Source: a virus (Duplodnaviria; Heunggongvirae; Uroviricota; Caudoviricetes). Taken from it: 10,454 nt of DNA. Position numbers and translations under genes: made by a program. The notes below the pieces were generated by a model. It was not told the DNA's origin. It saw nothing but the letters and a program-made list of their open reading frames with translations, and searched no databases. Below are positions 1 to 10,454 of this stretch, piece after piece. Position 1 is the stretch's first letter, and every line of letters begins with the position of its first letter. The stretch lies in the IMG/VR virus record IMGVR_UViG_2541047595_000021; one strand, given 5' to 3'.

Positions 1-19
1 ATGGCGCTCATAAATCTGG

Positions 20-25
20 TATACT
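20..25 (+). promoter_or_regulatory. Candidate -10 hexamer (TATACT) of the ssrA promoter; the -35 would lie outside the window
   Basis: TATACT sits about 15 nt upstream of the mature tmRNA 5' end, consistent with a short processed leader. Sequence pattern only. Confidence 0.3.
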
Positions 26-39
26 TACCTTTACACATT

Positions 40-402
40 GGGGCTGATTCTGGATTCGACGGGATTTGCGAAACCCAAGGTGCATGCCGAGGGGCGGTTG
101 GCCTCGTAAAAAGCCGCAAAAAATAGTCGCAAACGACGAAAACTACGCTTTAGCAGCTTAATAACCTGCTTAGAGCCCTCTCTCCCTAGCCTCCGCTCTT
201 AGGACGGGGATCAAGAGAGGTCAAACCCAAAAGAGATCGCGTGGAAGCCCTGCCTGGGGTTGAAGCGTTAAAACTTAATCAGGCTAGTTTGTTAGTGGCG
301 TGTCCGTCCGCAGCTGGCAAGCGAATGTAAAGACTGACTAAGCATGTAGTACCGAGGATGTAGGAATTTCGGACGCGGGTTCAACTCCCGCCAGCTCCAC
401 CA
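40..402 (+). ncRNA. ssrA: tmRNA (transfer-messenger RNA, SsrA), 363 nt
   Basis: Begins GGGGCTGATTCTGGATTCGACGGG (tRNA-like acceptor 5' half) and ends GGTTCAACTCCCGCCAGCTCCACCA (T-arm plus CCA). Contains the tag-peptide frame at 129..161. Matches the enterobacterial tmRNA as I recall it. Confidence 0.93.
129..161 (+). other. tmRNA tag-peptide reading frame ANDENYALAA plus stop
   Basis: gcaaacgacgaaaactacgctttagcagcttaa translates to A-N-D-E-N-Y-A-L-A-A-stop, the canonical E. coli-type degradation tag. Confidence 0.88.
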
Positions 403-438
403 CTTGCTCTTCCGGATACGTCCGGAGAAATCCTGAAA

Positions 439-470
439 GCCCGCATGGCACAAGCTCTGCGGGCTTTTTT
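439..470 (+). terminator. Rho-independent terminator downstream of ssrA
   Basis: GC-rich stem GCCCGCA...TGCGGGC followed by a run of six T (465..470). Confidence 0.6.
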
Positions 471-514
471 GTGTCTACCGTTGTCCGAGGATATCCAGCT
501 AAATCCAGTGATTA

Positions 515-566
515 TTGGTATACGTTTAGGTATACGGTAGGATGTATACCTAAACGCGTATACCAA
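515..566. repeat. Imperfect inverted repeat (about 21-bp arms, 8-bp spacer) just upstream of int; possible integrase arm sites or int operator
   Basis: Left arm TTGGTATACGTTTAGGTATAC (515..535); right arm 544..566 is its reverse complement with a 2-nt CG insertion. Repeated GTATAC cores. Sits between the ssrA terminator and the int ribosome-binding site. Confidence 0.55.
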
Positions 567-586
567 TTCATGAAGGAGCGGCCACA

Positions 587-1792
587 GTGGCAAGAACGAC
601 ACGCCCCCTGACCAACACAGAAGTTCTGCGCGCTAAAGCGTTAGAAAAGGATCTAACGTTACATGATGGCGATGGCCTTTTTCTGCTCATTAAAACGAAC
701 GGTAAGAAGTTGTGGCGTTTCCGTTATCAACGTCCAGCAACAAAACAGCGGACAATGATGGGGCTTGGTGCTTTCCCCGCCCTTTCACTTGCTGATGCTC
801 GACGGTTAAGAGCGGATTACCTTGCTTTGTTGGCTAATGGTATAGACCCACAAGTTCAAGCTGAATTTATCGAAGAACAACAACAGATAGCTCTAGACAG
901 TATTTTTTCGACTGTTGCGACCAACTGGTTCCAGATAAAAAGCAAAAGTGTTTCCCCTGATTACGCTAAAGATATATGGCGCTCGCTGGAAAAAGACATA
1001 TTCCCAGCCATTGGAGAGATTCCCGTCCAACAAATCAAAGCCCGTACGCTAGTCGAAGCTCTTGAGCCAATCAAAGCTCGTGGGGCTCTTGAAACTGTAC
1101 GTCGACTGATACAGCGGATTAACGAGATAATGATTTACGCTGTAAACACTGGTCTGATTGATGCCAATCCAGCATCGGGGGTTGGGATGGCCTTTGAGAA
1201 GCCCAAAAAGCAAAACATGCCAACATTGCGGCCAGAAGAATTGCCGAAGCTGATGCGTTCTTTAGCTATGTCAAACCTATCTGTTTCGACTCGCTGTCTC
1301 ATTGAATGGCAACTCCTGACACTTGTGCGTCCTTCTGAAGCCTCTGGTGCTCGTTGGGCAGAGCTCGATCTTGATACAAAGCTCTGGACTATTCCGGCAG
1401 AGAGAATGAAAGCCAAACGAGAGCACATTGTTCCTTTATCACCCCAAGCTTTAGATATTTTGGAAGTGATGAAGCCCATCAGTGCTCATCGTGAACATAT
1501 TTTTCCTAGCAGAAATGATCCTAAGCAATCAATGAATAGCCAAACTGCTAATGCAGCTTTAAAACGTATTGGTTTTGGAGGAAAGCTAGTTGCTCATGGC
1601 CTCCGATCTATTGCAAGTACAGCAATGAATGAAGCTGGGTTCAATGCGGATGTTATTGAAGCAGCTTTAGCTCACAGTGATAAAAATGAAGTTCGTAAAG
1701 CCTATAATCGTTCAACCTACCTGGTTCAAAGAAAAGATTTAATGAACTGGTGGGGATTATTTTGTATTAGTTCGAAGAGTGTGAATAAATGA
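587..1792 (+). CDS. int: Tyrosine recombinase, P4-type integrase (N-terminal arm-binding DUF4102-like domain), ssrA-specific
   Basis: GTG start with AAGGAG 9 nt upstream. N-terminus LTNTEVLRAKA...DGDGLFLLIKTNGKKLWRFRYQ is the typical P4-integrase arm-binding motif. C-terminal catalytic motifs HGLRS and AHSD...RKAYNRSTY (H-x-x-R ... Y). Directly adjacent to a tmRNA gene. Confidence 0.9.
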   Translation: MARTTRPLTNTEVLRAKALEKDLTLHDGDGLFLLIKTNGKKLWRFRYQRPATKQRTMMGLGAFPALSLADARRLRADYLALLANGIDPQVQAEFIEEQQQIALDSIFSTVATNWFQIKSKSVSPDYAKDIWRSLEKDIFPAIGEIPVQQIKARTLVEALEPIKARGALETVRRLIQRINEIMIYAVNTGLIDANPASGVGMAFEKPKKQNMPTLRPEELPKLMRSLAMSNLSVSTRCLIEWQLLTLVRPSEASGARWAELDLDTKLWTIPAERMKAKREHIVPLSPQALDILEVMKPISAHREHIFPSRNDPKQSMNSQTANAALKRIGFGGKLVAHGLRSIASTAMNEAGFNADVIEAALAHSDKNEVRKAYNRSTYLVQRKDLMNWWGLFCISSKSVNK

Positions 1793-3426
1793 ATACTTAT
1801 AAGCAAACCATTAAACAAAAATCAAGATTAAACATATGGGAAACAGCTATCGCAAGGTTGACAACCCAAGCTGAGAGCTCAAGAATCTTAGAATCAAACT
1901 ATTTAACAAATCTTATAGATTTTTGTTGGAAAGATACACTAAATCAAGTTGCTATATATGATGAGAGCATTGTATTACGCAATGGTTATAATTGGGTGCA
2001 AAAAATAAGTGATAGTTATAAACCTAAAGCTGCAAGTGAACTAAAGATTGCTTTCTTTTGCGGCCCTGAACCAGAAAATGACTTGGATATACTCTTATCA
2101 TTAGATGTTAGAATAGAAAATGTCTGGGCTTTTGAAATTGATAACAATTCATATAACACTGCCTTACAAAAAGCTAAAGAGTTCTATCCAAAATTAAAAA
2201 TATTCCCTGGTTCTATTGGGGAGTTTTTTAAAACCACACATCATACCTTTGATATTATTTACCTTGATTTTACAAGTTCGTTATTGACTAAAAAGAGCCC
2301 TCCCCTTGGAGTAATAAACTCTGTATTTGACAATCAGGCCCTATCAGACTTAGGGGTGTTAATTGTAAACTCTTGCGAACCCGATGCTAACGAAGATAAC
2401 GCAACATTTCTTGCAAGTTATTTCATGAATCACGAAATAATTGAATCATCTGTAATTAACAAAACTAATGATGATGATTATGATGATAACTATGATTATT
2501 TTTCACTTTTTATTGAATCCCCCACATCACAAGGATACGATGATATAAAGTCATTAGCAAAAGTTATAAAGACTAACATATCCGGAGCGTACTCTGCCTT
2601 TTCAACAAGTTATGTAATGCACTATGCTTCAATGATTAGTCCAACACTTCGTTTTCTACAAAATAACTCATTAAAAAGACAATTATTTAATGATAAAAAA
2701 GCTGAAGTAACTGCAACCTTTGCAGAAATTGGATCAACTGACTTTTTCAAAACATTAATATCAACAGATGGTGAAGCATCGTCCCCCTCCATTTTAGGAA
2801 ACAGATTCCTAGATAATGAAAGCTACCCATTCTGGAATTTCATTGATTCATTAAATGGCTCAGGAACAAGTATTTCATCTTACTTTAAGAGCTTTTTCAC
2901 CACCGCTAAAGAAGGTGTATCCATTTTAAATGCCGTGCAATTTCTGGAATCATTTCACTCAATGCTTACAGGAGCTAGAAAGCTATTATCTCAGCGAATG
3001 CTCAATGCAATACCCCAAATAATAAAAGCAATTCCTGATGCTAGAGGTGGTTTATTCTGTGACATTCCTTTACCCCACCTTTGGTTAGAGGTGGCACTTA
3101 ATCAGTTAGGTGCACCATACCATGTAAACGTGAAAATGCATAATCGATGGAAATATAAAGCAAAAACTCGCACAATGCATACGGACTTATTTGTTTTTGA
3201 TAGATGCAGAGGTTTTTATGACTCAATGCCTATGATAGATCAATACGAAACGATTCTTACTAACATCGAAGAACAAATTTTCGCTAGGTGTTGTATTGAT
3301 ATTATTGGTAAGCAATGTCGTTGGCCAACTCCAAAACTTTATTTTGGTTCGAACCTAATTGGAATAAACGAGTCTGATTGGTCTGAGTTCGCCGAACTTC
3401 GTGAAAGAGAAATTATAAAAGAATAA
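1789..3426 (+). CDS. Hypothetical protein, 545 aa; sole cargo gene in the int-to-cos hotspot; candidate anti-phage defence or abortive-infection protein, function unknown
   Basis: Long uninterrupted ORF whose ATG overlaps the int stop (ATGA). Strongly AT-rich with AT-rich codon usage (AAA, AAT, ATT, TTA), unlike the GC-rich psu/delta/sid/alpha backbone. Residues about 85-165 (KIAFFCGPEPEND...VWAFEID...FDIIYLDF) look like a Rossmann-type nucleotide-binding fold, but this is a weak guess. Acidic D/Y-rich segment NDDDYDDNYDY encoded at 2467..2499. Confidence 0.8.
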   Translation: MNTYKQTIKQKSRLNIWETAIARLTTQAESSRILESNYLTNLIDFCWKDTLNQVAIYDESIVLRNGYNWVQKISDSYKPKAASELKIAFFCGPEPENDLDILLSLDVRIENVWAFEIDNNSYNTALQKAKEFYPKLKIFPGSIGEFFKTTHHTFDIIYLDFTSSLLTKKSPPLGVINSVFDNQALSDLGVLIVNSCEPDANEDNATFLASYFMNHEIIESSVINKTNDDDYDDNYDYFSLFIESPTSQGYDDIKSLAKVIKTNISGAYSAFSTSYVMHYASMISPTLRFLQNNSLKRQLFNDKKAEVTATFAEIGSTDFFKTLISTDGEASSPSILGNRFLDNESYPFWNFIDSLNGSGTSISSYFKSFFTTAKEGVSILNAVQFLESFHSMLTGARKLLSQRMLNAIPQIIKAIPDARGGLFCDIPLPHLWLEVALNQLGAPYHVNVKMHNRWKYKAKTRTMHTDLFVFDRCRGFYDSMPMIDQYETILTNIEEQIFARCCIDIIGKQCRWPTPKLYFGSNLIGINESDWSEFAELREREIIKE

Positions 3427-3441
3427 ATCTCCACGCGCGCA

Positions 3442-3460
3442 GTGCTTTCCCCGCCTCGCC
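3442..3460 (-). other. cos: cos site: 19-nt cohesive-end sequence of P2/P4-type phages
   Basis: Plus strand reads GTGCTTTCCCCGCCTCGCC, the reverse complement of GGCGAGGCGGGGAAAGCAC, which I recall as the shared P2/P4 cohesive end. Position between the hotspot and psu matches the P4 prophage layout. Confidence 0.65.
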
Positions 3461-3563
3461 CGCCCGCTTTGCGGGGCGGTTTTAATGCAGTTGCACTGAC
3501 ACGCTCAGACCGCGCTGGGAATGGCGCGGTTTGCAGAAAATGAGGCAGGGAAACGCATGCAAA

Positions 3564-3594
3564 GCCATGCACCTTATCGATGCATGGCTTTTTT
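3564..3594. terminator. Hairpin terminator between cos and psu (perfect 8-bp stem, T6 on the plus strand, A-tract on the other side; possibly bidirectional)
   Basis: GCCATGCA-ccttatcga-TGCATGGC followed by TTTTTT. Lies just past the 3' end of psu (minus strand) and downstream of the cargo gene (plus strand). Confidence 0.55.
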
Positions 3595-3624
3595 CAGTAA
3601 AAACGGGCGGATTTTCGGGGAATT

Positions 3625-4197
3625 TTACACTGACTGACGTGATGCAAGTTGCGCACTTTTACGCGAAAAAATCATGTTCTGCGCAGGGGTGAATTTTTCA
3701 CGGCTGTCATCCACCGAAGCCACGTCAGGCCTGAATCCGATGGTCGTTAAAATGTCGCTATCCTGTGCGGAATAATTAATTTTTTCACCCTTCGCAAGCC
3801 AGGACAGAAGGGCTTCACGCAGGGCATCTGTGGCACGCTGTATGGCACAGTTTCGGGCAATGGCCGTCAGCTCACTGTAGCCCATCAGCTCCGGTGCCAG
3901 TGCGGCCGCCAGTACTGTGCCGTGCTGCTGCATAAAATCATTCAGCCGGTCGCGGATGCTGATGTGCTGAACGGCTTCATGCGAACGAATATAACGACCG
4001 GCGGCCTGATTCACCTGCCATTTTCTGACTTCGATAATATTGCGTAATTCGTCCAGGCGGCTGACGTTTCTGCCTTCTCCTGACAGAAGCCGCAGATATT
4101 CCTGTTCGGCCGCTGCCAGCTCATTTTTGCGTTGCAGCCATGCTGCTTTGTTATTCTGACAGGTGTCAAAGGCCTGCTGTAAGGCTGTGCTTTCCAT
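3625..4197 (-). CDS. psu: Psu (polarity suppression protein; capsid-decorating, Rho-antagonist), 190 aa
   Basis: 190-aa ORF starting MESTALQQAFDTCQNNKAAW, as I recall P4 Psu. Correct position and orientation at the end of the sid-delta-psu operon. Confidence 0.85.
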   Translation of the reverse strand: MESTALQQAFDTCQNNKAAWLQRKNELAAAEQEYLRLLSGEGRNVSRLDELRNIIEVRKWQVNQAAGRYIRSHEAVQHISIRDRLNDFMQQHGTVLAAALAPELMGYSELTAIARNCAIQRATDALREALLSWLAKGEKINYSAQDSDILTTIGFRPDVASVDDSREKFTPAQNMIFSRKSAQLASRQSV

Positions 4198-4270
4198 CGT
4201 TATCTCTTTCTCATCATGCTGAAGAATAAAAATACGGTGTGCGGCGACGGCCGGGGTTAACCGGCAGCCC

Positions 4271-4771
4271 TCATTCCAGACGCAGCGAATATGATTGTGT
4301 TTTTAACCGTACTGGCGGCAGTTCCTGTTTTTCATGCAGGCGTTCTGCCAGTTCGTCCGGCGTGACCGGGCGGACAATGAAGCGGGTGATGGTCTGAAGC
4401 GTTTTAAACACCAGACCACAGTCCGGATCCGTGCACACATAAAAACGCTCGGTGACTTCCTGAGACAGACGCCGCGATGTTCTTGACAGCGCAAGGCCTT
4501 TACATCTCCGACAACAATATCCGGTAACAAGCATTCTTTTCGGGCGTTTCATACTGCCGGAGGCTGACGTCAGTGAATCGCGGTATCTCTGTTTGCCTGA
4601 AATGTATTCCATTCCTGAATCTTTACTGTCAGAGAAAAAGCTTTCACTCGCTTCAAATGTCTCAGAGCAATAAATATTCCGGCACTGTGCAATCATTATC
4701 TTGGTGCCATCGTCCATGAAATGTGCGCGACGGGTGTGAGCAACATGTCCACACGACGGGCAGTAAATCAT
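4271..4771 (-). CDS. delta: Delta (Ogr/Delta-family zinc-finger late transcription activator, duplicated Ogr-like domains), 166 aa
   Basis: Two C-x2-C...C-x4-C zinc-finger units (CPSCGHVAH...CRNIYC and CCRRCKG...CTDPDC) typical of Ogr/Delta. Length 166 aa as in P4. Start overlaps the sid stop (ATGA). Confidence 0.85.
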   Translation of the reverse strand: MIYCPSCGHVAHTRRAHFMDDGTKIMIAQCRNIYCSETFEASESFFSDSKDSGMEYISGKQRYRDSLTSASGSMKRPKRMLVTGYCCRRCKGLALSRTSRRLSQEVTERFYVCTDPDCGLVFKTLQTITRFIVRPVTPDELAERLHEKQELPPVRLKTQSYSLRLE

Positions 4772-5502
4772 GACAGCAGTCCTCTGGCCTTAAGCTCTGC
4801 TCCCTGCTGGTCTATTTTGTCCTGCCACACCTTGCGCTGTGCCGGTGTGCCTGCCACCTCATAATCCATGTGCGGGAGTGTTGCCGCTGACAGTCCGGTC
4901 AGCCGGAGAACCGGCTCGCCGGTGAGGCTGATTTGCATCTGTTTAATTTTCTGTTCCAGCGATGATTTCACCTGCTGCATGACAGCTTTATCGGGTGCGA
5001 CGTAGCCCTGATGGCCGGTGGTGTTGGCGAGCGGATTTTCCTGTACCAGGATACTCAGATGCATTGCCCGGACAAGCGCCTCACAGGTTTCATTCAGGGC
5101 GTGTTCCAGCTCATGCTCTGCATACAGACTCAGAAGGTGATGATGTGCCTTCCGGTAGGCGGTGGCCGTGCTGTCACACGCCCCTTTCAGGCGTTCACGT
5201 TCGAAATTCAGCACCACGGCCAGATTGTCATATTCCTGTACCAGCTCCCGGCGTGCCACGCGCTCAATGTGGCGCTGTTTCAGCTCGTCGCTCAGGACAC
5301 CACCGGCTGCACGAAAGGCCGTGCGCCAGTCGTCAGCGTCGTTTCCGTTGGCCTGCGTCAGCGCATTTTTTTCCTGCTCTGCCCGTTCAATGGCCGTGAT
5401 GGTCTCATCCATCAGGCGGGCGTTCTCAAGATGAGCGGCTCTGGCCTTTTCCAGTTGTGCCAGTGCGGGTTGCAGATATTCAGGGATGGTGTTGTCAGAC
5501 AT
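4768..5502 (-). CDS. sid: Sid (capsid size determination, external scaffold), 244 aa
   Basis: The track ORF runs to a GTG at 5520, but the ATG at 5502 (MSDNTIPEYLQ...) has a GAGGAG 7 nt upstream and gives 244 aa, matching P4 Sid. Coiled-coil-like, Ala/Glu/Leu-rich composition. Confidence 0.8.
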   Translation of the reverse strand: MSDNTIPEYLQPALAQLEKARAAHLENARLMDETITAIERAEQEKNALTQANGNDADDWRTAFRAAGGVLSDELKQRHIERVARRELVQEYDNLAVVLNFERERLKGACDSTATAYRKAHHHLLSLYAEHELEHALNETCEALVRAMHLSILVQENPLANTTGHQGYVAPDKAVMQQVKSSLEQKIKQMQISLTGEPVLRLTGLSAATLPHMDYEVAGTPAQRKVWQDKIDQQGAELKARGLLS

Positions 5503-5574
5503 TTTCCGGCTCCTCGTCACTTCAGGTTAAGAAAATTGTGACGTACACCGGACAACAACACGACGCATTGCAGA

Positions 5575-5592
5575 TGTGCCAGCCCTGACACA
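5575..5592 (-). promoter_or_regulatory. TGT-N12-ACA activator box (Delta/Ogr/Cox-type) of the candidate late promoter Psid
   Basis: TGTgccagccctgacACA lies about 70-90 nt upstream of the sid ATG. P2/P4 late promoters are activated through a TGT-N12-ACA dyad centred near -55. Confidence 0.5.
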
Positions 5593-5671
5593 GGAGACTC
5601 ATCCTCACACCGGCAAGCCAGGAAAAGGTCGCAGGAAAAACCGGCTTACTGTTTGTTTTTTTATATTTTAC

Positions 5672-5775
5672 TGTTCACCTCTGTTCACCATAAGAAAAAA
5701 GATAAGTAATACAGTAAGTTAAAGGGTGAACAATCGCAGTAATGACTGTTCACCGTCTGTTCACCACTGTTCACC
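5672..5775. repeat. Cluster of six TGTTCACC octamer iterons (five direct, one inverted) in an AT-rich region; candidate alpha-binding cis replication region (crr) or origin
   Basis: TGTTCACC at 5672..5679, 5682..5689, 5747..5754, 5758..5765 and 5768..5775; inverted copy GGTGAACA at 5725..5732. This octamer is the P4 alpha-protein binding iteron in ori and crr, as I recall. Confidence 0.65.
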
Positions 5776-5879
5776 CGTTGATGGGCTTTTTGTGCTGTTT
5801 ATTACTGTTTATTTTTATTAATTCGCCGGGAATGAATAAGAAAAAACGATTTGTATTTCACTATAAAAATTACGAATTG

Positions 5880-5909
5880 CTTTAAGTGGCTTTAAATGAC
5901 TTTAAGTGG
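5880..5909 (+). repeat. Three tandem 10-bp units (CTTTAAGTGG / CTTTAAATGA / CTTTAAGTGG), helically phased; candidate protein-binding sites upstream of PLL
   Basis: Direct tandem repeat read from the sequence, 26 nt upstream of the PLL TGT-N12-ACA box. Confidence 0.5.
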
Positions 5910-5934
5910 AGATGAACAAAAAACACACAAGCAT

Positions 5935-5952
5935 TGTAAGGCTGCCGGAACA
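5935..5952 (+). promoter_or_regulatory. TGT-N12-ACA activator box of the candidate late leftward promoter PLL driving vis
   Basis: TGTaaggctgccggaACA centred about 110 nt upstream of the vis ATG, a position consistent with a -55 activator site plus leader. Confidence 0.5.
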
Positions 5953-6054
5953 AATCCCCCCTGTTGCGTCTGCCAAAAATATTCACAAAATAAAGCGCTA
6001 CCCGAAGCCGGACGGACTTATCCGGTGCTGTATGGACATTAACGAGGTAGCCCG

Positions 6055-6321
6055 ATGCAAGCTGTTTTTTCTTCCCCGTCTCCCGCCCCTGTGACGCCAC
6101 TGATGCCGCTGCCGGACATCACGCAGGAACGTTTTTTACGTCTGCCGGAAGTAATGCACCTGTGCGGCCTGTCACGCTCGACCATCTATGAACTCATCCG
6201 TAAGGGGGAATTTCCGCCGCAGGTGAGTCTTGGCGGTAAAAATGTGGCCTGGCTGCACTCTGAAGTCACCGCATGGATGGCCGGGCGCATTGCCGGACGC
6301 AAACGGGGGTACGACGCATGA
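6055..6321 (+). CDS. vis: Vis/AlpA-family helix-turn-helix regulator and excision factor, 88 aa
   Basis: [47 protein letters not shown] is a typical AlpA/Vis-type HTH. 88 aa as in P4 orf88 (Vis). GAGG ribosome-binding site 7 nt upstream. Confidence 0.8.
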
Positions 6322-6917
6322 TGATGCCCGCTCTGCAAAAACTCCCTTTTTCTGGCTTGCCTTTTTCCGGCATTTGCGGATATAGTTTTCCCGCTGCCGC
6401 AAAATCGGCAGCCGGGCGTGGAAACCCGAGCAATCTAACGGCGACATATGACGCGCCATGCGTCTTTTTTTGTGTCGCAATCAACGCCACAGAGCGCCAG
6501 ATTATGGTGTGGTGTGTGGTCAGTCGAGCAGATGGCACTCCGTGCATCCTGCCCGCGTCCGCTCATTATGCCGCAGAGTCAATGGTAGCTCAGGCGGGGC
6601 AGCCTCCGGGCTGGCCGGTATCCGTTAGAGCCGGTATTTCCACCCCCGTCTGGGCTATCGCCATCGAGCGTGGAAACTCCGGCGATAGCGTAACCTGCTA
6701 TCTAACGGAGGCTGCCATCATGGCTACAACCCTTACCCCTTCACACCCTGAATTTGTCTTTGTGTTTGCGGCTGTCCGTCGCGCAGACCGTCATCCCCGT
6801 ATCTGCATGCTTCGCACCGTCGCCGGTGATGAACGCAGTGCCCGCCGTTCCCTTGTCCGTGACTATGTGCTCTCCCTTGCTGCCCGTCTGCCGGTGGTGG
6901 AGGTGTCCCGTGCGTAA
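6318..6917 (+). CDS. Long ORF (199 aa from the ATG overlapping the vis stop) spanning the immunity region; possibly kil-like with a nested in-frame gene, or largely spurious
   Basis: Open frame across a GC-rich regulatory region. Its ATG overlaps the vis stop (ATGATGATG). P4 is reported, as I recall, to have nested kil/eta genes in this region. No good ribosome-binding site, and long spurious ORFs are common in this GC-rich stretch. Confidence 0.3.
6357..6386 (+). promoter_or_regulatory. Candidate sigma70 promoter (PLE-like): -35 TTGCCT, 18-nt spacer, -10 TATAGT
   Basis: Hexamers at 6357..6362 and 6381..6386, just downstream of vis and upstream of the seqA element. Pattern match only. Confidence 0.35.
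6418..6441 (+). promoter_or_regulatory. seqA-like element (GTGGAAA...TCTAACGG), RNA target complementary to seqB
   Basis: Contains GTGGAAA and TCTAACGG separated by 9 nt. The reverse complement of 6622..6643 contains the same two blocks. Confidence 0.5.
6450..6471 (+). terminator. Short hairpin plus T7 tract; possible intrinsic terminator or attenuator within the immunity region
   Basis: GACGC-gccat-GCGTC followed by TTTTTTT. The stem is only 5 bp, and the position between seqA and seqB is awkward if seqB must be transcribed from the same promoter. Confidence 0.3.
6622..6643 (+). ncRNA. cI: seqB-like core of a putative CI-type immunity RNA (antisense to seqA and seqC; RNA ends undetermined)
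   Basis: CCGTTAGAgccggtaTTTCCAC is the reverse complement of the GTGGAAA...TCTAACGG blocks found at 6418..6441 and 6669..6708. This three-way arrangement matches the P4 CI RNA immunity system as I recall it. Confidence 0.45.
6669..6708 (+). promoter_or_regulatory. seqC-like element; its TCTAACGG block overlaps the Shine-Dalgarno of the ORF starting at 6720
   Basis: GTGGAAA (6672..6678) and TCTAACGG (6701..6708), with the GGAGG ribosome-binding site at 6707..6711. A 9-bp hairpin (6652..6660 with 6681..6689) encloses the GTGGAAA block. Confidence 0.5.
6720..6917 (+). CDS. Small protein, 65 aa (eta-position nested ORF), function unknown
   Basis: ATG at 6720 with a strong GGAGG 8 nt upstream. 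In frame with, and nested in, the longer ORF. Its stop overlaps the GTG start of the next gene. Confidence 0.45.
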
Positions 6918-7197
6918 TAAAAAAGCCCCTCAGACCGTCTCAGCACGTCATGACGCCCGTGAACACCTCAGCATTGAGGCTTACCATAAGCTCAACCGCG
7001 CCAGCGCCGTATCCCAGTTTGTTGGGGGTGATTTGATTCACCGTGAACTCTCCGGCCTGCATCAGCTCTACATTCCGCATATTTTCAGCTACCTGAATGA
7101 AGATATTGATTTTGTGCTGAATGAGCTGAAAGCCAAAGGCCTGTGCCGCGATTTTCTCGCCCAGCAGAAAGACCGGGGAGACAGGACGCATGTTTGA
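6910..7197 (+). CDS. Epsilon-position protein, 95 aa; possible helper-prophage derepression factor (antirepressor)
   Basis: GTG start with GGAGG 6 nt upstream. Sits immediately upstream of orf151 in the P4 order. The track ORF from 6754 is an upstream extension in the same frame without a ribosome-binding site. Assignment is by position and size only. Confidence 0.5.
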
Positions 7198-7645
7198 TTT
7201 TCCCCAGCCCGGTGAGATTTACCGTTCTGCCGGTTTTCCCGATGTGGCCGTGGTCGGCATTCTGGAAGACGGTATTCCGTGGGAAATGCCGTACCGCTGC
7301 CCGGACATTGTCTGGAACCCGTACCGCCGTAAATTCAGTATCCTTGTGCGTATCCTCGCTGACGGGCGCACCACAGACATCCCGCTGGGGCGTTTTCTGC
7401 GGGAATTTACCTGTGACCGTCCTGACCTGTTTAAACGCAGCCCCGTAAACCGGCATGCGGTACTGAAAGAAATGGCCGGAGACCCGGAATTACAGAAATG
7501 GCGGGAGAAATATCTGGATATTTACCCGCAGGACACTGTTCCGGTCAGCCGGGCGGCACCGGTGGCGCGGGAATGGCGGGAAATTCCCCGCACGGAGCCT
7601 GACCCGGAAATCACCCCGGATAACAGTTACCGCAATTATCTGTAA
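7190..7645 (+). CDS. Conserved P4-family protein orf151 (151 aa), function unknown
   Basis: Exactly 151 aa, in the P4 position between the epsilon-position gene and alpha. Start overlaps the upstream stop. Confidence 0.7.
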   Translation: MFDFPQPGEIYRSAGFPDVAVVGILEDGIPWEMPYRCPDIVWNPYRRKFSILVRILADGRTTDIPLGRFLREFTCDRPDLFKRSPVNRHAVLKEMAGDPELQKWREKYLDIYPQDTVPVSRAAPVAREWREIPRTEPDPEITPDNSYRNYL

Positions 7646-7673
7646 TTAAAAAACGACACCCGAAAAATTAAAT

Positions 7674-7699
7674 GTGCGTATTCGCGCAGGGATACGCAC
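7674..7699 (+). other. 8-bp-stem hairpin between orf151 and orf106; possible attenuator or processing site, no T-tract
   Basis: GTGCGTAT-tcgcgcaggg-ATACGCAC read directly from the sequence. Confidence 0.3.
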
Positions 7700-7780
7700 G
7701 TCTTCAGGAGACGCAGATATGCCTTATCAGTTAATGCAACCGGCACGGAATGCAGTCATCTGTCACAGGGAGGAAAACAA

Positions 7781-8101
7781 ATGAAAACACCCTTACCGCC
7801 CGTCTTACGCGCTGCCCTTTACCGTCGCGCTGTCGCCTGTGCCTGGCTGACCGTGTGCGAACGTCAGCACCGCTACCCGCATCTCACCCTTGAGTCACTG
7901 GAAGCGGCCATCGCCGCTGAGCTGGAAGGCTTTTATCTGCGCCAGCACGGTGAGGAAAAAGGGCGTCAGATAGCCTGTGCCCTGCTGGAAGATTTAATGG
8001 AATCCGGCCCCCTGAAGGCCGCGCCGTCGCTGTCCTTTCTCGGGCTGGTTGTGATGGATGAACTCTGTGCCCGTCACATAAAAGCGCCGGTACTGCACTG
8101 A
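7781..8101 (+). CDS. Conserved P4-family protein orf106 (106 aa), function unknown
   Basis: 106-aa ORF immediately upstream of alpha, as in P4. A 21-codon upstream ORF (7719..7784) ends in an ATGA overlap with its start. Confidence 0.65.
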
Positions 8102-8115
8102 AGGAGAACAACACC

Positions 8116-10454
8116 ATGAAAATGAACGTAACCGCCACCGTCAGCCATGCGCTCGGCCACTGGCCGCGTATTCTCCCGGCGCTGGGGATTCAGGTGCTGA
8201 AAAACCGTCATCAGCCCTGTCCGGTCTGTGGCGGGAGTGACCGCTTCCGTTTTGATGACAGGGAGGGGCGCGGCACCTGGTACTGCAATCAGTGTGGTGC
8301 CGGTGACGGCCTGAAACTGGTTGAAAAGGTGTTTGGTGTCTCCCCGTCCGACGCGGCCGCAAAGGTGGCTGCCGTGACCGGCAGCCTGCCCCCGGCTGAC
8401 CCGGCAGTGACGGCTGCCGCCGGTGCTGAAACAGACGCTGCCCGGAAGAACGCCGCCGCACTGGCACAAACCCTGATGGCGAAAACCCGTCCCGGAACCG
8501 GTAACGCCTACCTGACCCGCAAGGGCTTTCCCGGCCGGGAATGCCGGATGCTGACCGGCACACACAGAGCCGGTGGCGTGAGCTGGCGTGCCGGTGACCT
8601 TGTGGTGCCACTGTATGACGACAGCGGCGAACTGGTTAACCTTCAGTTAATCAGTGCTGACGGCCGTAAGCGCACCCTGAAAGGCGGACAGGTCAGGGGC
8701 ACCTGTCACACCCTTGAAGGACAGAATCAGGCCGGAAAACGTCTGTGGATAGCGGAGGGATACGCGACCGCACTTACCGTGCATCACCTGACCGGTGAAA
8801 CGGTGATGGTGGCGCTTTCTTCCGTGAACCTCCTTTCTCTGGCCAGCCTTGCCCGGCAGAAGCATCCGGCCTGTCAGATTGTCCTTGCCGCAGACCGTGA
8901 CCTCAGCGGTGACGGCCAGAAAAAAGCCGCCGCAGCCGCAGATGCGTGTGAAGGTGTTGTTGCCCTGCCGCCGGTCTTCGGTGACTGGAATGATGCCTTC
9001 ACGCAGTACGGCGGGGAGGCCACCCGTAAGGCCATTTACGATGCCATCCGGCCACCGGCTGAAAGCCCGTTCGACACCATGAGTGAAGCGGAGTTTTCCG
9101 CCATGAGTACCAGCGAAAAGGCCATGCGTATCTATGAGCATTACGGCGAGGCGCTCGCGGTCGATGCCAACGGCCAGCTTCTGTCCCGCTATGAAAATGG
9201 TGTCTGGAAGGTGCTGCCGCCACAGGACTTTGCCCGGAATGTGGCCGGGCTGTTTCAGCGGCTGCGCGCGCCGTTCTCCTCCGGGAAGGTGGCCTCCGTG
9301 GTGGACACCCTGAAGCTGATTATTCCGCAGCAGGAAGCCCCCTCCCGCTGCCTGATTGGCTTTCGTAACGGCGTGCTCGACACGCAGAACGGCACGTTCC
9401 ACCCGCACAGTCCGTCACACTGGATGCGTACCCTGTGCGATGTGGATTTCACCCCGCCGGTGGAAGGGGAAACGCTGGAAACCCACGCCCACGCGTTCTG
9501 GCGCTGGCTTGACCGTGCCGCCGGTGGCCGTGCGGAAAAACGCGACGTGATTCTGGCCGCACTGTTTATGGTGCTGGCAAACCGCTATGACTGGCAGCTC
9601 TTTCTGGAGGTGACCGGTCCCGGCGGCAGCGGCAAAAGTATCATGGCCGAAATAGCCACCCTGCTGGCCGGGGAGGATAACGCCACGTCGGCCACCATTG
9701 AGACGCTGGAATCCCCGCGTGAACGTGCCGCGTTAACTGGCTTCTCACTGATACGCCTGCCGGACCAGGAAAAATGGAGCGGCGACGGAGCCGGACTCAA
9801 GGCCATCACCGGCGGCGATGCAGTGTCCGTTGACCCGAAATACCGGGATGCGTACTCCACGCATATCCCGGCGGTGATTCTGGCCGTGAACAATAAAATA
9901 ACCCGATGCGCTTCACCGACCGCAGCGGCGGCGTGTCACGCCGGCGGGTGATTATTCACTTCCCGGAACAGATAGCCCCGCAGGAGCGCGACCCGCAGCT
10001 TAAGGACAAAATCACCCGCGAGCTGGCGGTCATCGTGCGTCACCTGATGCAGAAGTTCAGCGACCCGATGCTCGCCCGGTCACTGCTTCAGTCCCAGCAG
10101 AACTCAGACGAGGCACTGAACATCAAACGGGATGCCGACCCGACGTTTGATTTTATCGGCTATCTGGAAACCCTGCCGCAGACCAGCGGCATGTATATGG
10201 GGAACGCCAGTATCATCCCGCGTAATTACCGTAAATACCTCTATCACGCCTATCTGGCCTACATGGAGGCAAACGGCTACCGGAATGTACTCAGTCTGAA
10301 AATGTTCGGGCTGGGGCTGCCGGTGATGCTGAAGGAATACGGACTGAATTACGAGAAGCGCCATACCAAACAGGGGATACAGACCAACCTGACACTGAAA
10401 GAGGAAAGCTACGGCGACTGGCTGCCAAAATGTGACGCCCGTGCAACAACCTGA
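8116..10454 (+). pseudogene. alpha: Alpha primase-helicase (zinc-ribbon primase, TOPRIM, SF3/D5-type helicase, C-terminal DNA-binding domain), interrupted by a +5 frameshift near 9892..9901
   Basis: AAGGAG ribosome-binding site 9 nt before the ATG. Zinc-ribbon CPVCGG...CNQC, TOPRIM acidic motifs (IAEGY, LAADRD), Walker A VTGPGGSGKS. Reading frame 1 stops at 9951 and frame 0 continues from 9906 to the stop at 10452..10454. Combined length is about 777 aa, as for P4 alpha. The breakpoint coincides with a tandem AATAA-AATAA. Confidence 0.75.

What the first reader, a model, noticed from the sequence alone, without database searches (positions are those of the whole stretch)
3427..3624. Cos site defines the hotspot boundary; the cargo gene is bracketed by int and cos with terminators on the cos side
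The 19-nt cohesive-end sequence at 3442..3460 places the variable gene exactly where P4 carries its own accessory genes (gop, beta, cII). A hairpin at 3564..3594 and a GC-rich hairpin with a T-run overlapping cos (about 3455..3484) would insulate psu from cargo transcription. An intact cos means the element, cargo included, could still be packaged and mobilised by a helper.
Basis: partly seen in the sequence, partly recalled or inferred. Interest (0 to 1): 0.45.

Follow-up and report, generated by a model that had tools for sequence, protein, structure and literature searches.

The report
P4 satellite cos site beside cargo hotspot
This stretch is the DNA-packaging (cos) site of a P4-like phage satellite inserted next to the E. 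coli ssrA gene; the swappable cargo gene begins 7 bases past it, an arrangement already published in 2022.

Summary
The exact P2/P4 19-nt cohesive end (GGCGAGGCGGGGAAAGCAC) lies at 3442-3460 on the minus strand. Window 3435-10454 is 98% identical to phage P4. Window 1-3434 (ssrA, a different P4-family integrase, a 545-aa cargo ORF) has no P4 nucleotide similarity and replaces gop/beta/cII.

In 119 distinct P4-like loci, conservation stays near 2 bits through cos plus 7 nt (TGCGCGC). It falls to 0.08 bits at window 3434. That edge is the end of the 55-bp P2/P4 cos core. Cos does mark the hotspot boundary.

This is already known. Rousset et al. [quoted passage not shown]

Both hairpins exist and carry T-runs on the cargo-sense strand, so a terminator role is plausible here. 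But they are conserved backbone, not cargo-specific. The GC hairpin lies inside the cos core and decays in satellites with other cos types. The 11-bp hairpin sits exactly 129 nt from cos in 130/130 satellites and, in register, in P2-like helper phages.

Packaging is plausible. However, alpha in this copy is split by a 5-nt duplication.

The parts
40..402 (+). ssrA (tmRNA) gene; its 3' end is the integration site (attL side) of the satellite
   Evidence: ARAGORN; Rfam RF00023, 295.8 bits; annotated ssrA in the identical E. coli locus L002
587..1792 (+). P4-family tyrosine integrase (401 aa), 37% identical to P4 Int. Its last ~10 codons, after the ...LMNWWG motif, already belong to the variable region.
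   Evidence: Pfam Arm-DNA-bind_3 / Phage_int_M / Phage_integrase; NCBIfam PRK09692; BLASTP against P4 Int; 3'-end alignment of six loci
1789..3426 (+). Cargo ORF (545 aa). Its ATG overlaps the int stop codon (ATGA). GC content is 31-37% against 50-58% for the backbone. It has a class I methyltransferase-like fold and unknown function. It occupies the place of P4 gop/beta/cII.
3427..3434 (.). Last 8 nt of the variable cassette. The conserved/variable junction lies between 3434 and 3435.
   Evidence: Information content 0.08 bits at 3434 against 1.76 bits at 3435 in 119 distinct loci; alignment of six E. coli loci plus P4
3435..3489 (-). 55-bp cos core shared by P2 and P4: 7 nt (TGCGCGC in psu sense), the 19-nt cohesive end, and about 29 nt on the psu side.
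   Evidence: Ungapped P2 / P4 / window comparison; P2-like phage hits covering window 3435-3515; the '55-bp core' of Ziermann & Calendar 1990 as cited in PMC5694545
3442..3460 (-). 19-nt cohesive-end sequence GGCGAGGCGGGGAAAGCAC. The inferred terminase nicks are at 3461|3460 on the psu-sense strand and at 3442|3441 on the other strand.
   Evidence: Exact match; P4 record ends; P2 cosL/cosR annotation. The nick positions are inferred from the record ends, not measured.
3460..3483 (+). GC-rich hairpin CCGCCC-N8-GGGCGG followed by TTTT. It is terminator-like on the cargo-sense strand and lies inside the cos core.
   Evidence: Terminator scan; -12.9 kcal/mol; strong in 42/42 P2/P4-type backbones; mean -7.3 kcal/mol in 68 backbones with other cos types, while TTTTAATG is kept in 101/110; not in the RNAalifold consensus
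3506..3533 (.). Middle inverted repeat CAGACCGCGC / GCGCGGTTTG, within the extended cos region
   Evidence: the repeat finder pair I6; partly conserved in A1, where only the pairs 111-122 and 112-121 were predicted and 4 sequences carry a two-sided change. Function not tested.
3561..3595 (.). Perfect 11-bp inverted repeat (AAAGCCATGCA / TGCATGGCTTT). T6 follows it on the + strand, and TTTGCATGCG follows it on the psu-sense strand. It is a candidate bidirectional terminator and/or an element of the extended packaging site.
   Evidence: the repeat finder pair I4; folds (psu-sense z = -3.5); invariant 129 nt from cos in 130/130 loci; the pair is G-C in 56 and G-U in 54 sequences on the psu-sense strand; in-register homologue in P2, S164, SW9 and Midge
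3625..4197 (-). psu (190 aa), 99.5% identical to P4 Psu
   Evidence: Pfam PF07455, E = 3.9e-88; tblastn
4271..5520 (-). delta (4271-4771) and sid (4768-5502/5520), which together with psu form the late operon that converges on cos
   Evidence: Pfam Ogr_Delta; tblastn against P4 Delta 97% and Sid 98%
8116..10454 (+). alpha primase-helicase gene, split into 611-aa and 182-aa ORFs by a 5-nt AATAA tandem duplication near 9892-9901
   Evidence: ORF list; alignment to the intact copy in L002; two tblastn segments in different frames

Best explanation
Window 3427-3624 is the cos packaging region of a P4-like satellite prophage integrated at ssrA.

Shown:
- The 19-nt P2/P4 cohesive end lies at 3442-3460, inside the 55-bp core (3435-3489) that P4 shares with its helper P2.
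- The whole 164-nt psu-to-cos spacer is 98.8% identical to P4. It aligns without indels to the right-end cos region of P2-like helper phages.
- The variable 'hotspot' cassette runs from just after the integrase ...WWG motif (about 1760) to 3434, seven bases beyond the cohesive end. Here it holds one 545-aa methyltransferase-fold gene in place of gop/beta/cII.

Inferred mechanism:
- After excision and circularisation, a P2-type helper terminase binds the extended cos region and nicks at 3461|3460 and 3442|3441. It packages the roughly 10.6-kb circle, cargo included, into Sid-shrunken capsids.
- Everything up to the edge of the terminase-constrained core is free to be swapped. Swapping occurs by recombination between the conserved flanks (cos/psu on one side, the int 3' end on the other) or through cos-end recombination as proposed by Rousset et al. 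Either route explains why the conservation cliff sits exactly at the core edge.
- The cargo is probably co-transcribed with int, because its start overlaps the int stop (ATGA). It has no terminator of its own: its stop is 15 nt from cos. Its transcript therefore most likely ends at the backbone hairpins, namely 3460-3479 plus U4 and then 3561-3591 plus U6.
- The 3561-3591 hairpin also faces the convergent sid-delta-psu transcript. These hairpins are thus dual-use backbone elements whose conservation is driven mainly by packaging and by the late operon.
For: - Exact 19-mer.
- P4 alignment at 98.1% over 3435-10454, across the cos junction.
- P2 cosL/cosR and the shared core; the 55-bp core cited in PMC5694545.
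- Six E. coli ssrA loci with the same flanks but different cargo: SEC-C, SIR2, AAA+DUF4435, NACHT and two unrelated hypothetical proteins.
- Conservation cliff at 3435|3434 in 119 distinct loci, and the 7-mer TGCGCGC conserved at 97% or more.
- The same cargo (84% aa) beside a different cos type and a 61%-identical Psu in Photorhabdus, with its stop again 15 nt from cos.
- All P4 core genes present.
- Hairpin anatomy.
- 15 of 45 cos-facing cargo ORFs end 35 nt or less from cos.
- Helper-phage in-register homology.
- Rousset et al. 2022 describe the same architecture and list this cargo protein.
- A P4 cos on a plasmid is sufficient for P2 packaging (PMC9942202).
Against: - No transcript 3' ends or packaging data exist for this element.
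- Terminator-like patterns are not enriched over shuffles, and + strand fold z-scores are weak.
- The GC hairpin is not conserved as a hairpin in satellites with other cos types and is absent from the consensus fold.
- The + strand U-tract of the 11-bp hairpin is broken in many backbones.
- Cassettes without room for their own terminator are not significantly enriched for intact backbone U-tracts: 14/15 against 23/30.
- Alpha is frameshifted in this copy, which may prevent replication and lower packaging.
- The attR assignment is weak (16 nt with gaps) and lies outside the window.
Confidence: 0.85

Rival explanations
1. The two hairpins are not transcription terminators. They are protein-recognition elements of an extended cos site (binding sites for terminase small subunit or accessory proteins), and the T-runs are part of that DNA signal.
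For: - The GC hairpin lies inside the 55-bp P2/P4 core.
- TTTTAATG is conserved in 101/110 backbones even where the hairpin has decayed.
- The 11-bp hairpin is at an invariant 129 nt from cos in 130/130 loci, and the whole spacer has no indels. A terminator would not need that spacing.
- P2, S164, SW9 and Midge carry the TGCAT-N8-TGCAT-N5-TGCAT array or hairpin in the same register, although they have no psu.
- P2 annotates its own tQ terminator elsewhere, at 160-181.
Against: - The 11-bp stem goes beyond the TGCAT motifs.
- It begins about 33 nt after the psu stop.
- It has a canonical U6 on one strand and tolerates G-U on the other. These are RNA-level features.
- In S164 a rightward CDS also ends just before the element.
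- The two roles are not exclusive.
Confidence: 0.35
2. The 3561-3591 hairpin is primarily the intrinsic terminator of the late sid-delta-psu operon (psu sense). It keeps late transcription, which Psu makes Rho-resistant, from crossing cos into the cargo. Its effect on cargo-sense transcripts is incidental.
For: - Psu-sense fold of -19.5 kcal/mol with z = -3.5, against z = -1.0 on the + strand.
- The pair at columns 48-72 is G-C in 56 and G-U in 54 sequences on the psu-sense strand, which would be a C-A mismatch on the other strand.
- The T72-T74 tail is invariant, whereas the upstream A-tract (the + strand U-tract) varies.
Against: - The psu-sense tail UUUGCAUGCG is a poor U-tract.
- On this window the + strand has the better canonical terminator (U6).
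- The loci were selected with a pattern covering the stem, so stem invariance is uninformative.
- Helper phages without psu have the same element.
Confidence: 0.3
3. The element is a decaying, immobile remnant. Cos is retained only because too little time has passed, and the cargo is now a fixed chromosomal gene.
For: Alpha is split by a 5-nt duplication in this copy. Only 5 of 5426 complete E. coli genomes carry this cargo at this site.
Against: - Every other P4 gene is intact at 94-100% aa identity, and the cos region is 98.8% identical to P4.
- The sister copy in L002 has an intact alpha.
- The same cargo occurs in a distant Photorhabdus satellite and in an IMG/VR contig, which indicates recent mobility.
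Confidence: 0.1

Closest known systems
Satellite phage P4 (NC_001609 / X51522): cos and the non-essential region gop-beta-cII
   Same: The 19-nt cohesive end is identical. The psu-cos spacer is 98.8% identical and the identity over psu to alpha is 98.1%. Gene order is the same: int, accessory region, cos, psu-delta-sid ... alpha.
   Different: The accessory region holds one unrelated 545-aa gene instead of gop/beta/cII. The integrase is only 37% identical and targets ssrA; P4 integrates at leuX (own knowledge, not checked here). Alpha is frameshifted. One base differs in the 7-mer next to cos (T against C in P4); T is the family majority and is also the P2 base.
P4-like satellite defence hotspot (Rousset et al. 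2022, Cell Host Microbe, PMC9122126; Moura de Sousa & Rocha 2021, PMC8628076)
   Same: The variable cassette lies between psu and int, directly adjacent to cos, in either orientation. The neighbouring E. coli loci carry PARIS-like AAA+DUF4435, SIR2, NACHT and other genes. This cargo protein, WP_021572920, is itself in their Table S1A.
   Different: Nothing differs in architecture. Added here: the base-exact position of the cliff (cos + 7 nt, the edge of the 55-bp core) across cos types and genera, and the left edge inside the int 3' end. This cargo was not among their tested systems, and its function is unknown.
P2 cos site and 55-bp core (Ziermann & Calendar 1990; P2 NC_001895)
   Same: The 19-mer is identical, as are the 7 nt on the left-end side and about 29 nt on the right-end side, including the GC hairpin and TTTTAATG(C).
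   Different: In P2 the variable hotspot (old/tin) lies on the other side of cos, the right-end side, beyond the core. The side that is variable in P4 carries tQ and gene Q in P2. Beyond the core only the TGCAT array is shared with P2.
Intrinsic bidirectional terminators between convergent genes
   Same: A perfect 11-bp stem flanked by an A-tract and a T-tract lies between the convergent cargo and psu genes.
   Different: It has a fixed spacing to cos and an in-register homologue in helper phages. The psu-sense U-tract is imperfect. No 3'-end data are available.

Membership tests
P2/P4-type cos site | 19-nt cohesive-end sequence GGCGAGGCGGGGAAAGCAC | tested here: met
   Exact, single occurrence at 3442-3460 on the minus strand. 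Equals P4 bases 1-19 and the annotated P2 cosL/cosR.
P2/P4-type cos site | Conserved ~55-bp core around the cohesive end, shared by P2 and P4 | tested here: met
   Window 3435-3489 matches P2 except for 2 loop bases. P2-like phages hit window 3435-3515 at 85-92%.
P2/P4-type cos site | Cleavage by helper terminase and helper-dependent packaging | not testable with these tools
   Needs a transduction or cos-cleavage assay. Literature shows that a P4 cos on a plasmid is sufficient (PMC9942202).
P4-like satellite (core components of Moura de Sousa & Rocha 2021) | psu, delta, sid, alpA (orf88), epsilon, integrase and alpha in conserved order | tested here: met
   All are found by tblastn at 94-100% aa identity, with int at 36-37%. 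Caveat: alpha is split by a 5-nt duplication in this copy.
P4 defence hotspot (Rousset et al. 2022) | Variable gene content between psu and int, adjacent to cos, among otherwise related elements | tested here: met
   Six ssrA loci with different cargo; 98 distinct cassettes among 130 loci; conservation cliff at 3435|3434.
P4 defence hotspot (Rousset et al. 2022) | Cargo is an anti-phage system | not tested
   No PADLOC, Pfam, NCBIfam or PHROG hit. Only context supports it: homologues sit in an integron cassette and an integrase/relaxase island. Needs plaque assays.
Intrinsic (Rho-independent) terminator | GC-rich stem-loop immediately followed by a U-tract on the transcribed strand | tested here: met
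   On the + strand: 3460-3479 plus UUUU, and 3561-3591 plus U6. On the psu-sense strand only UUUG follows the stem.
Intrinsic (Rho-independent) terminator | Hairpin plus U-tract conserved across relatives (or covarying), beyond chance | tested here: inconclusive
   The scan shows no enrichment over shuffles. The GC hairpin decays in other cos types. The 11-bp stem is invariant, but the loci were selected on it. There is one G-C/G-U pair. The + strand U-tract is broken in about 30 of 68 non-P2/P4-type backbones.
Intrinsic (Rho-independent) terminator | Transcript 3' ends map to the U-tract | not testable with these tools
   Needs Term-seq or 3' RACE.

The most novel reading that the evidence does not exclude
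The hotspot works as a 'plug-in socket'. Cassettes can be swapped without their own promoter or terminator because the backbone supplies both: int read-through via the ATGA overlap on one side, and the cos-flanking hairpins as shared, dual-use packaging and terminator elements on the other. The cassette plugged in here, a widespread 545-aa methyltransferase-fold protein with no annotated family, would be a new single-gene anti-phage system.
Probability: 0.25. Interest if true: 0.45.

Novelty: already known. Interest (0 to 1): 0.15.

Why it matters
The result confirms that the window is a textbook P4-like satellite with its defence or accessory hotspot abutting cos. The cargo gene should therefore be read as satellite-borne, helper-mobilisable cargo, and it is a reasonable candidate anti-phage gene.

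The architecture itself adds nothing beyond Rousset et al. 2022. The modest additions are these:
- The conservation cliff is base-exact, at cos + 7 nt, which is the edge of the 55-bp P2/P4 core. This holds across cos types and genera.
- The whole psu-cos spacer is in-register homologous to helper-phage cos regions.
- Many cos-facing cassettes leave no room for a terminator of their own.

Tried and rejected
- Rfam, at gathering thresholds over the whole window and at permissive E-values on 3380-3680, found nothing in the interval. It found only tmRNA, C4, isrK and c4-a1b1 elsewhere.
- Pfam, PADLOC, NCBIfam, PHROGs and a PDB sequence search gave nothing for the cargo.
- The Psu-based scan of genome contigs returned only 6 loci. 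A DNA-pattern scan of IMG/VR was used instead. This biases the set: the stem of the 11-bp hairpin was part of the pattern, so its invariance is not evidence.
- RNAalifold on 110 backbones gave almost no covariation: 1 pair with two-sided changes.
- I had guessed that the GC hairpin is the terminator of the P2 P-Q operon reaching across cos. I dropped this because P2 annotates tQ at 160-181, before cos.
- I tested whether cassettes that end 35 nt or less from cos are enriched for backbones with intact cargo-sense terminators. The result was 14/15 against 23/30, not significant.
- Literature searches for mapped 3' ends of P4 late transcripts, or for the minimal P4 cos fragment, found no open-access primary data. 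The Ziermann & Calendar details are known only through citations.
- The cargo of L003, which also overlaps the int stop, is unrelated to this cargo.

Full report
**What is in the sequence**

The interval 3427-3624 is the gap between the stop codon of a 545-aa ORF (1789-3426, + strand) and the stop codon of psu (3625-4197, - strand). The 19-mer GGCGAGGCGGGGAAAGCAC occurs once in the window, at 3442-3460 on the minus strand, with no mismatch. With up to three mismatches allowed, shuffles give 0.03 matches. It equals bases 1-19 of the P4 record and the annotated cosL/cosR of P2.

A BLAST against circularised P4 gives one 98.1% alignment, from window 3435 to 10454. It runs from P4 base 26 back through the cos junction (window 3460 = P4 base 1, window 3461 = P4 base 11624) to the stop codon of alpha. 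Window 1-3434 has no P4 nucleotide similarity.

**The element**

The window starts with ssrA (40-402). Next comes a P4-family integrase, 37% identical to P4 Int, then the cargo ORF, then cos. After cos come psu, delta, sid, orf88, the cI/C4 RNA region, epsilon, orf151, orf106 and alpha, at 94-100% amino-acid identity to P4. P4 gop, beta and cII have no counterpart. The window is therefore a P4-like satellite prophage at ssrA. Its cargo gene sits exactly where P4 has its non-essential region.

**Does cos define the hotspot boundary?**

Five of 5426 complete E. coli genomes carry the same cargo at this site. Many others have the same ssrA-int and cos-psu flanks with different content: SEC-C, SIR2, AAA+DUF4435 (PARIS-like), NACHT, and another unrelated hypothetical protein. 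In all of these, and in P4, similarity resumes 5-8 nt before the 19-mer.

I widened the sample with a DNA-pattern scan of IMG/VR and six Psu-anchored genomic loci from other genera. This gave 130 loci, 119 of them distinct. They carry several cos variants:
- 52 of the P2/P4 type;
- 50 GGCGTGGCGGGGAGAGCAT;
- 12 GGCGGGG...;
- the rest rarer variants.

Information content is 1.8-2.0 bits through the cohesive end and through the next seven bases (TGCGCGC; window 3441-3435). It falls to 0.08 bits at window 3434. Comparison with P2 shows that 3435 is the edge of the P2/P4 shared core: about 29 nt + 19 nt + 7 nt. This matches the "55-bp core" of Ziermann & Calendar, as cited in PMC5694545.

On the other side, similarity among the integrase genes ends just after the ...LMNWWG motif. 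The last ~10 codons of int therefore belong to the cassette. Composition agrees: the cargo is 31-37% GC against 50-58% for the backbone.

**This is already published**

Rousset et al. 2022 (PMC9122126) describe the psu-int hotspot of P4-like satellites. [quoted passage not shown] Their Figure 1A shows the conserved and variable cos-proximal sequence, and they suggest that cos ends may drive recombination. Their Table S1A lists WP_021572920, the product of this very cargo ORF as annotated in the identical locus L002, as a "hypothetical" hotspot occupant. Moura de Sousa & Rocha 2021 and a 2026 NAR paper say the same.

**The hairpins**

Both hairpins are present.

The GC hairpin has a 6-bp GC stem at 3460-3479, followed by TTTT on the + strand. 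The second hairpin is a perfect 11-nt inverted repeat at 3561-3571 / 3581-3591, followed by T6. On the cargo-sense strand both look like intrinsic terminators. As patterns they are not beyond chance: 2 found against 1.8 expected, with + strand z-scores of -0.3 and -1.0.

Both are P4 backbone, not part of the cassette. Their comparative behaviour is informative.

1. The GC hairpin.
   - It lies within the cos core and is also present in P2.
   - It is -12.6 kcal/mol in 42/42 P2/P4-type backbones.
   - It averages only -7.3 kcal/mol (range -1.7 to -12.9) in 68 backbones with other cos types.
   - The following TTTTAATG is kept in 101/110 backbones.
   - It is absent from the RNAalifold consensus.

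2. The 11-bp hairpin.
   - It starts exactly 129 nt from cos in 130/130 loci, and the spacer has no indels.
   - P2-like helper phages that have no psu (S164, SW9, Midge, and more weakly P2 itself) carry the same TGCAT-N8-TGCAT-N5-TGCAT element or hairpin in the same register.
   - On the psu-sense strand one stem pair is G-C in 56 sequences and G-U in 54.
   - The psu-sense tail TTTGCATG is essentially invariant (109 of 110).
   - The cargo-sense U-tract is broken in roughly 30 of 68 non-P2/P4-type backbones.

The conserved constraint is therefore packaging and/or psu-sense termination.

A local terminator role for cargo transcripts remains plausible. The cargo stop is 15 nt from cos, both here and in the Photorhabdus copy. 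Fifteen of 45 cos-facing cargo ORFs in other satellites end 35 nt or less from cos, leaving no room for their own terminator. An association between such cassettes and intact backbone U-tracts was not significant (14/15 against 23/30).

**Mobilisation**

- The cos region is essentially that of P4.
- Sid, Delta, Psu and Epsilon are intact.
- The element is about 10.6 kb, judged from a weak attR-like match outside the window in L002. P4 is 11.6 kb.
- A P4 cos on a plasmid suffices for packaging by P2 without P4 replication (PMC9942202).
- Against full competence, alpha is split in this copy by a 5-nt AATAA tandem duplication. The sister copy in L002 is intact.

**The cargo (outside the finding proper)**

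- The same gene is 99.9% identical in an IMG/VR contig.
- It is 84% identical at protein level in a Photorhabdus asymbiotica P4-like satellite whose Psu is only 61% identical and whose cos is of another type. This is direct evidence of cassette exchange between distant backbones.
- The family is widespread, at about 540 aa, with no Pfam domain.
- Homologues sit in a Vibrio superintegron cassette and in a Salmonella integrase/relaxase island.
- An AlphaFold2 model is confident (pLDDT 88, pTM 0.91).

**Verdict**

The core interpretation (cos, hotspot position, boundary) is correct but already known. The terminator/insulator role and the mobilisation are plausible inferences with the caveats above.

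Noticed in passing
[not shown]
   Followed up: partly
L013:6553-8428 (Photorhabdus asymbiotica DSM 15149) compared with window 1789-3460: The same cargo (81% nt, 84% aa) sits beside a different cos type (GGCGTGGCGGGGATAGCAT) in a satellite whose Psu is only 61% identical and appears frameshifted. The cargo stop is 15 nt from cos in both. This indicates cassette exchange between distant backbones.
   Followed up: partly
window 9885-9905: A 5-nt tandem duplication (AATAA) splits alpha into 611-aa and 182-aa ORFs. The 99.6%-identical copy in E. coli LC-1302-2020 (L002) lacks it and has a 777-aa alpha.
   Followed up: yes
window 1760-1795: The left edge of the variable region lies inside int. Similarity among ssrA-type integrases ends after ...LMNWWG, and the last ~10 codons differ with each cassette. 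Here, and in L003, the cargo ATG overlaps the int stop (ATGA), which suggests co-transcription or translational coupling with int.
   Followed up: partly
window 3435-3634; L133-L137: The whole 164-nt psu-cos spacer aligns without indels to the right-end cos region of P2-like helper phages. It includes a TGCAT-N8-TGCAT-N5-TGCAT array at a fixed 129 nt from cos. These may be terminase or accessory-protein binding sites.
   Followed up: partly
window 3446-3457 and 3542-3553: An inverted repeat of the cohesive-end core (TTTCCCCGCCTC / GAGGCAGGGAAA, 11/12) lies 84 nt away. It drives the strong long-range fold of the psu-sense strand (z = -5.1). Its conservation in other cos types looks weak.
   Followed up: no
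L133/L134 (P2 NC_001895) compared with the window: The P2 hotspot (old/tin) lies on the opposite side of cos from the P4 hotspot. The side that is variable in P4 carries tQ and gene Q in P2.
   Followed up: partly
window 514-570; L002:18859-18881: Integrase arm-type repeats (ATTGGTATACG / TTAGGTATACG, plus inverted copies) lie upstream of int and again after the crr repeats at the far end of the element. A weak attR-like copy of the ssrA 3' end is at L002 18935-18950.
   Followed up: partly
window 6380-6665: Rfam finds the P4 immunity RNA system (C4 antisense RNA 6578-6665, c4-a1b1 targets 6380-6432) and isrK (6393-6470), so the immunity region looks intact.
   Followed up: no
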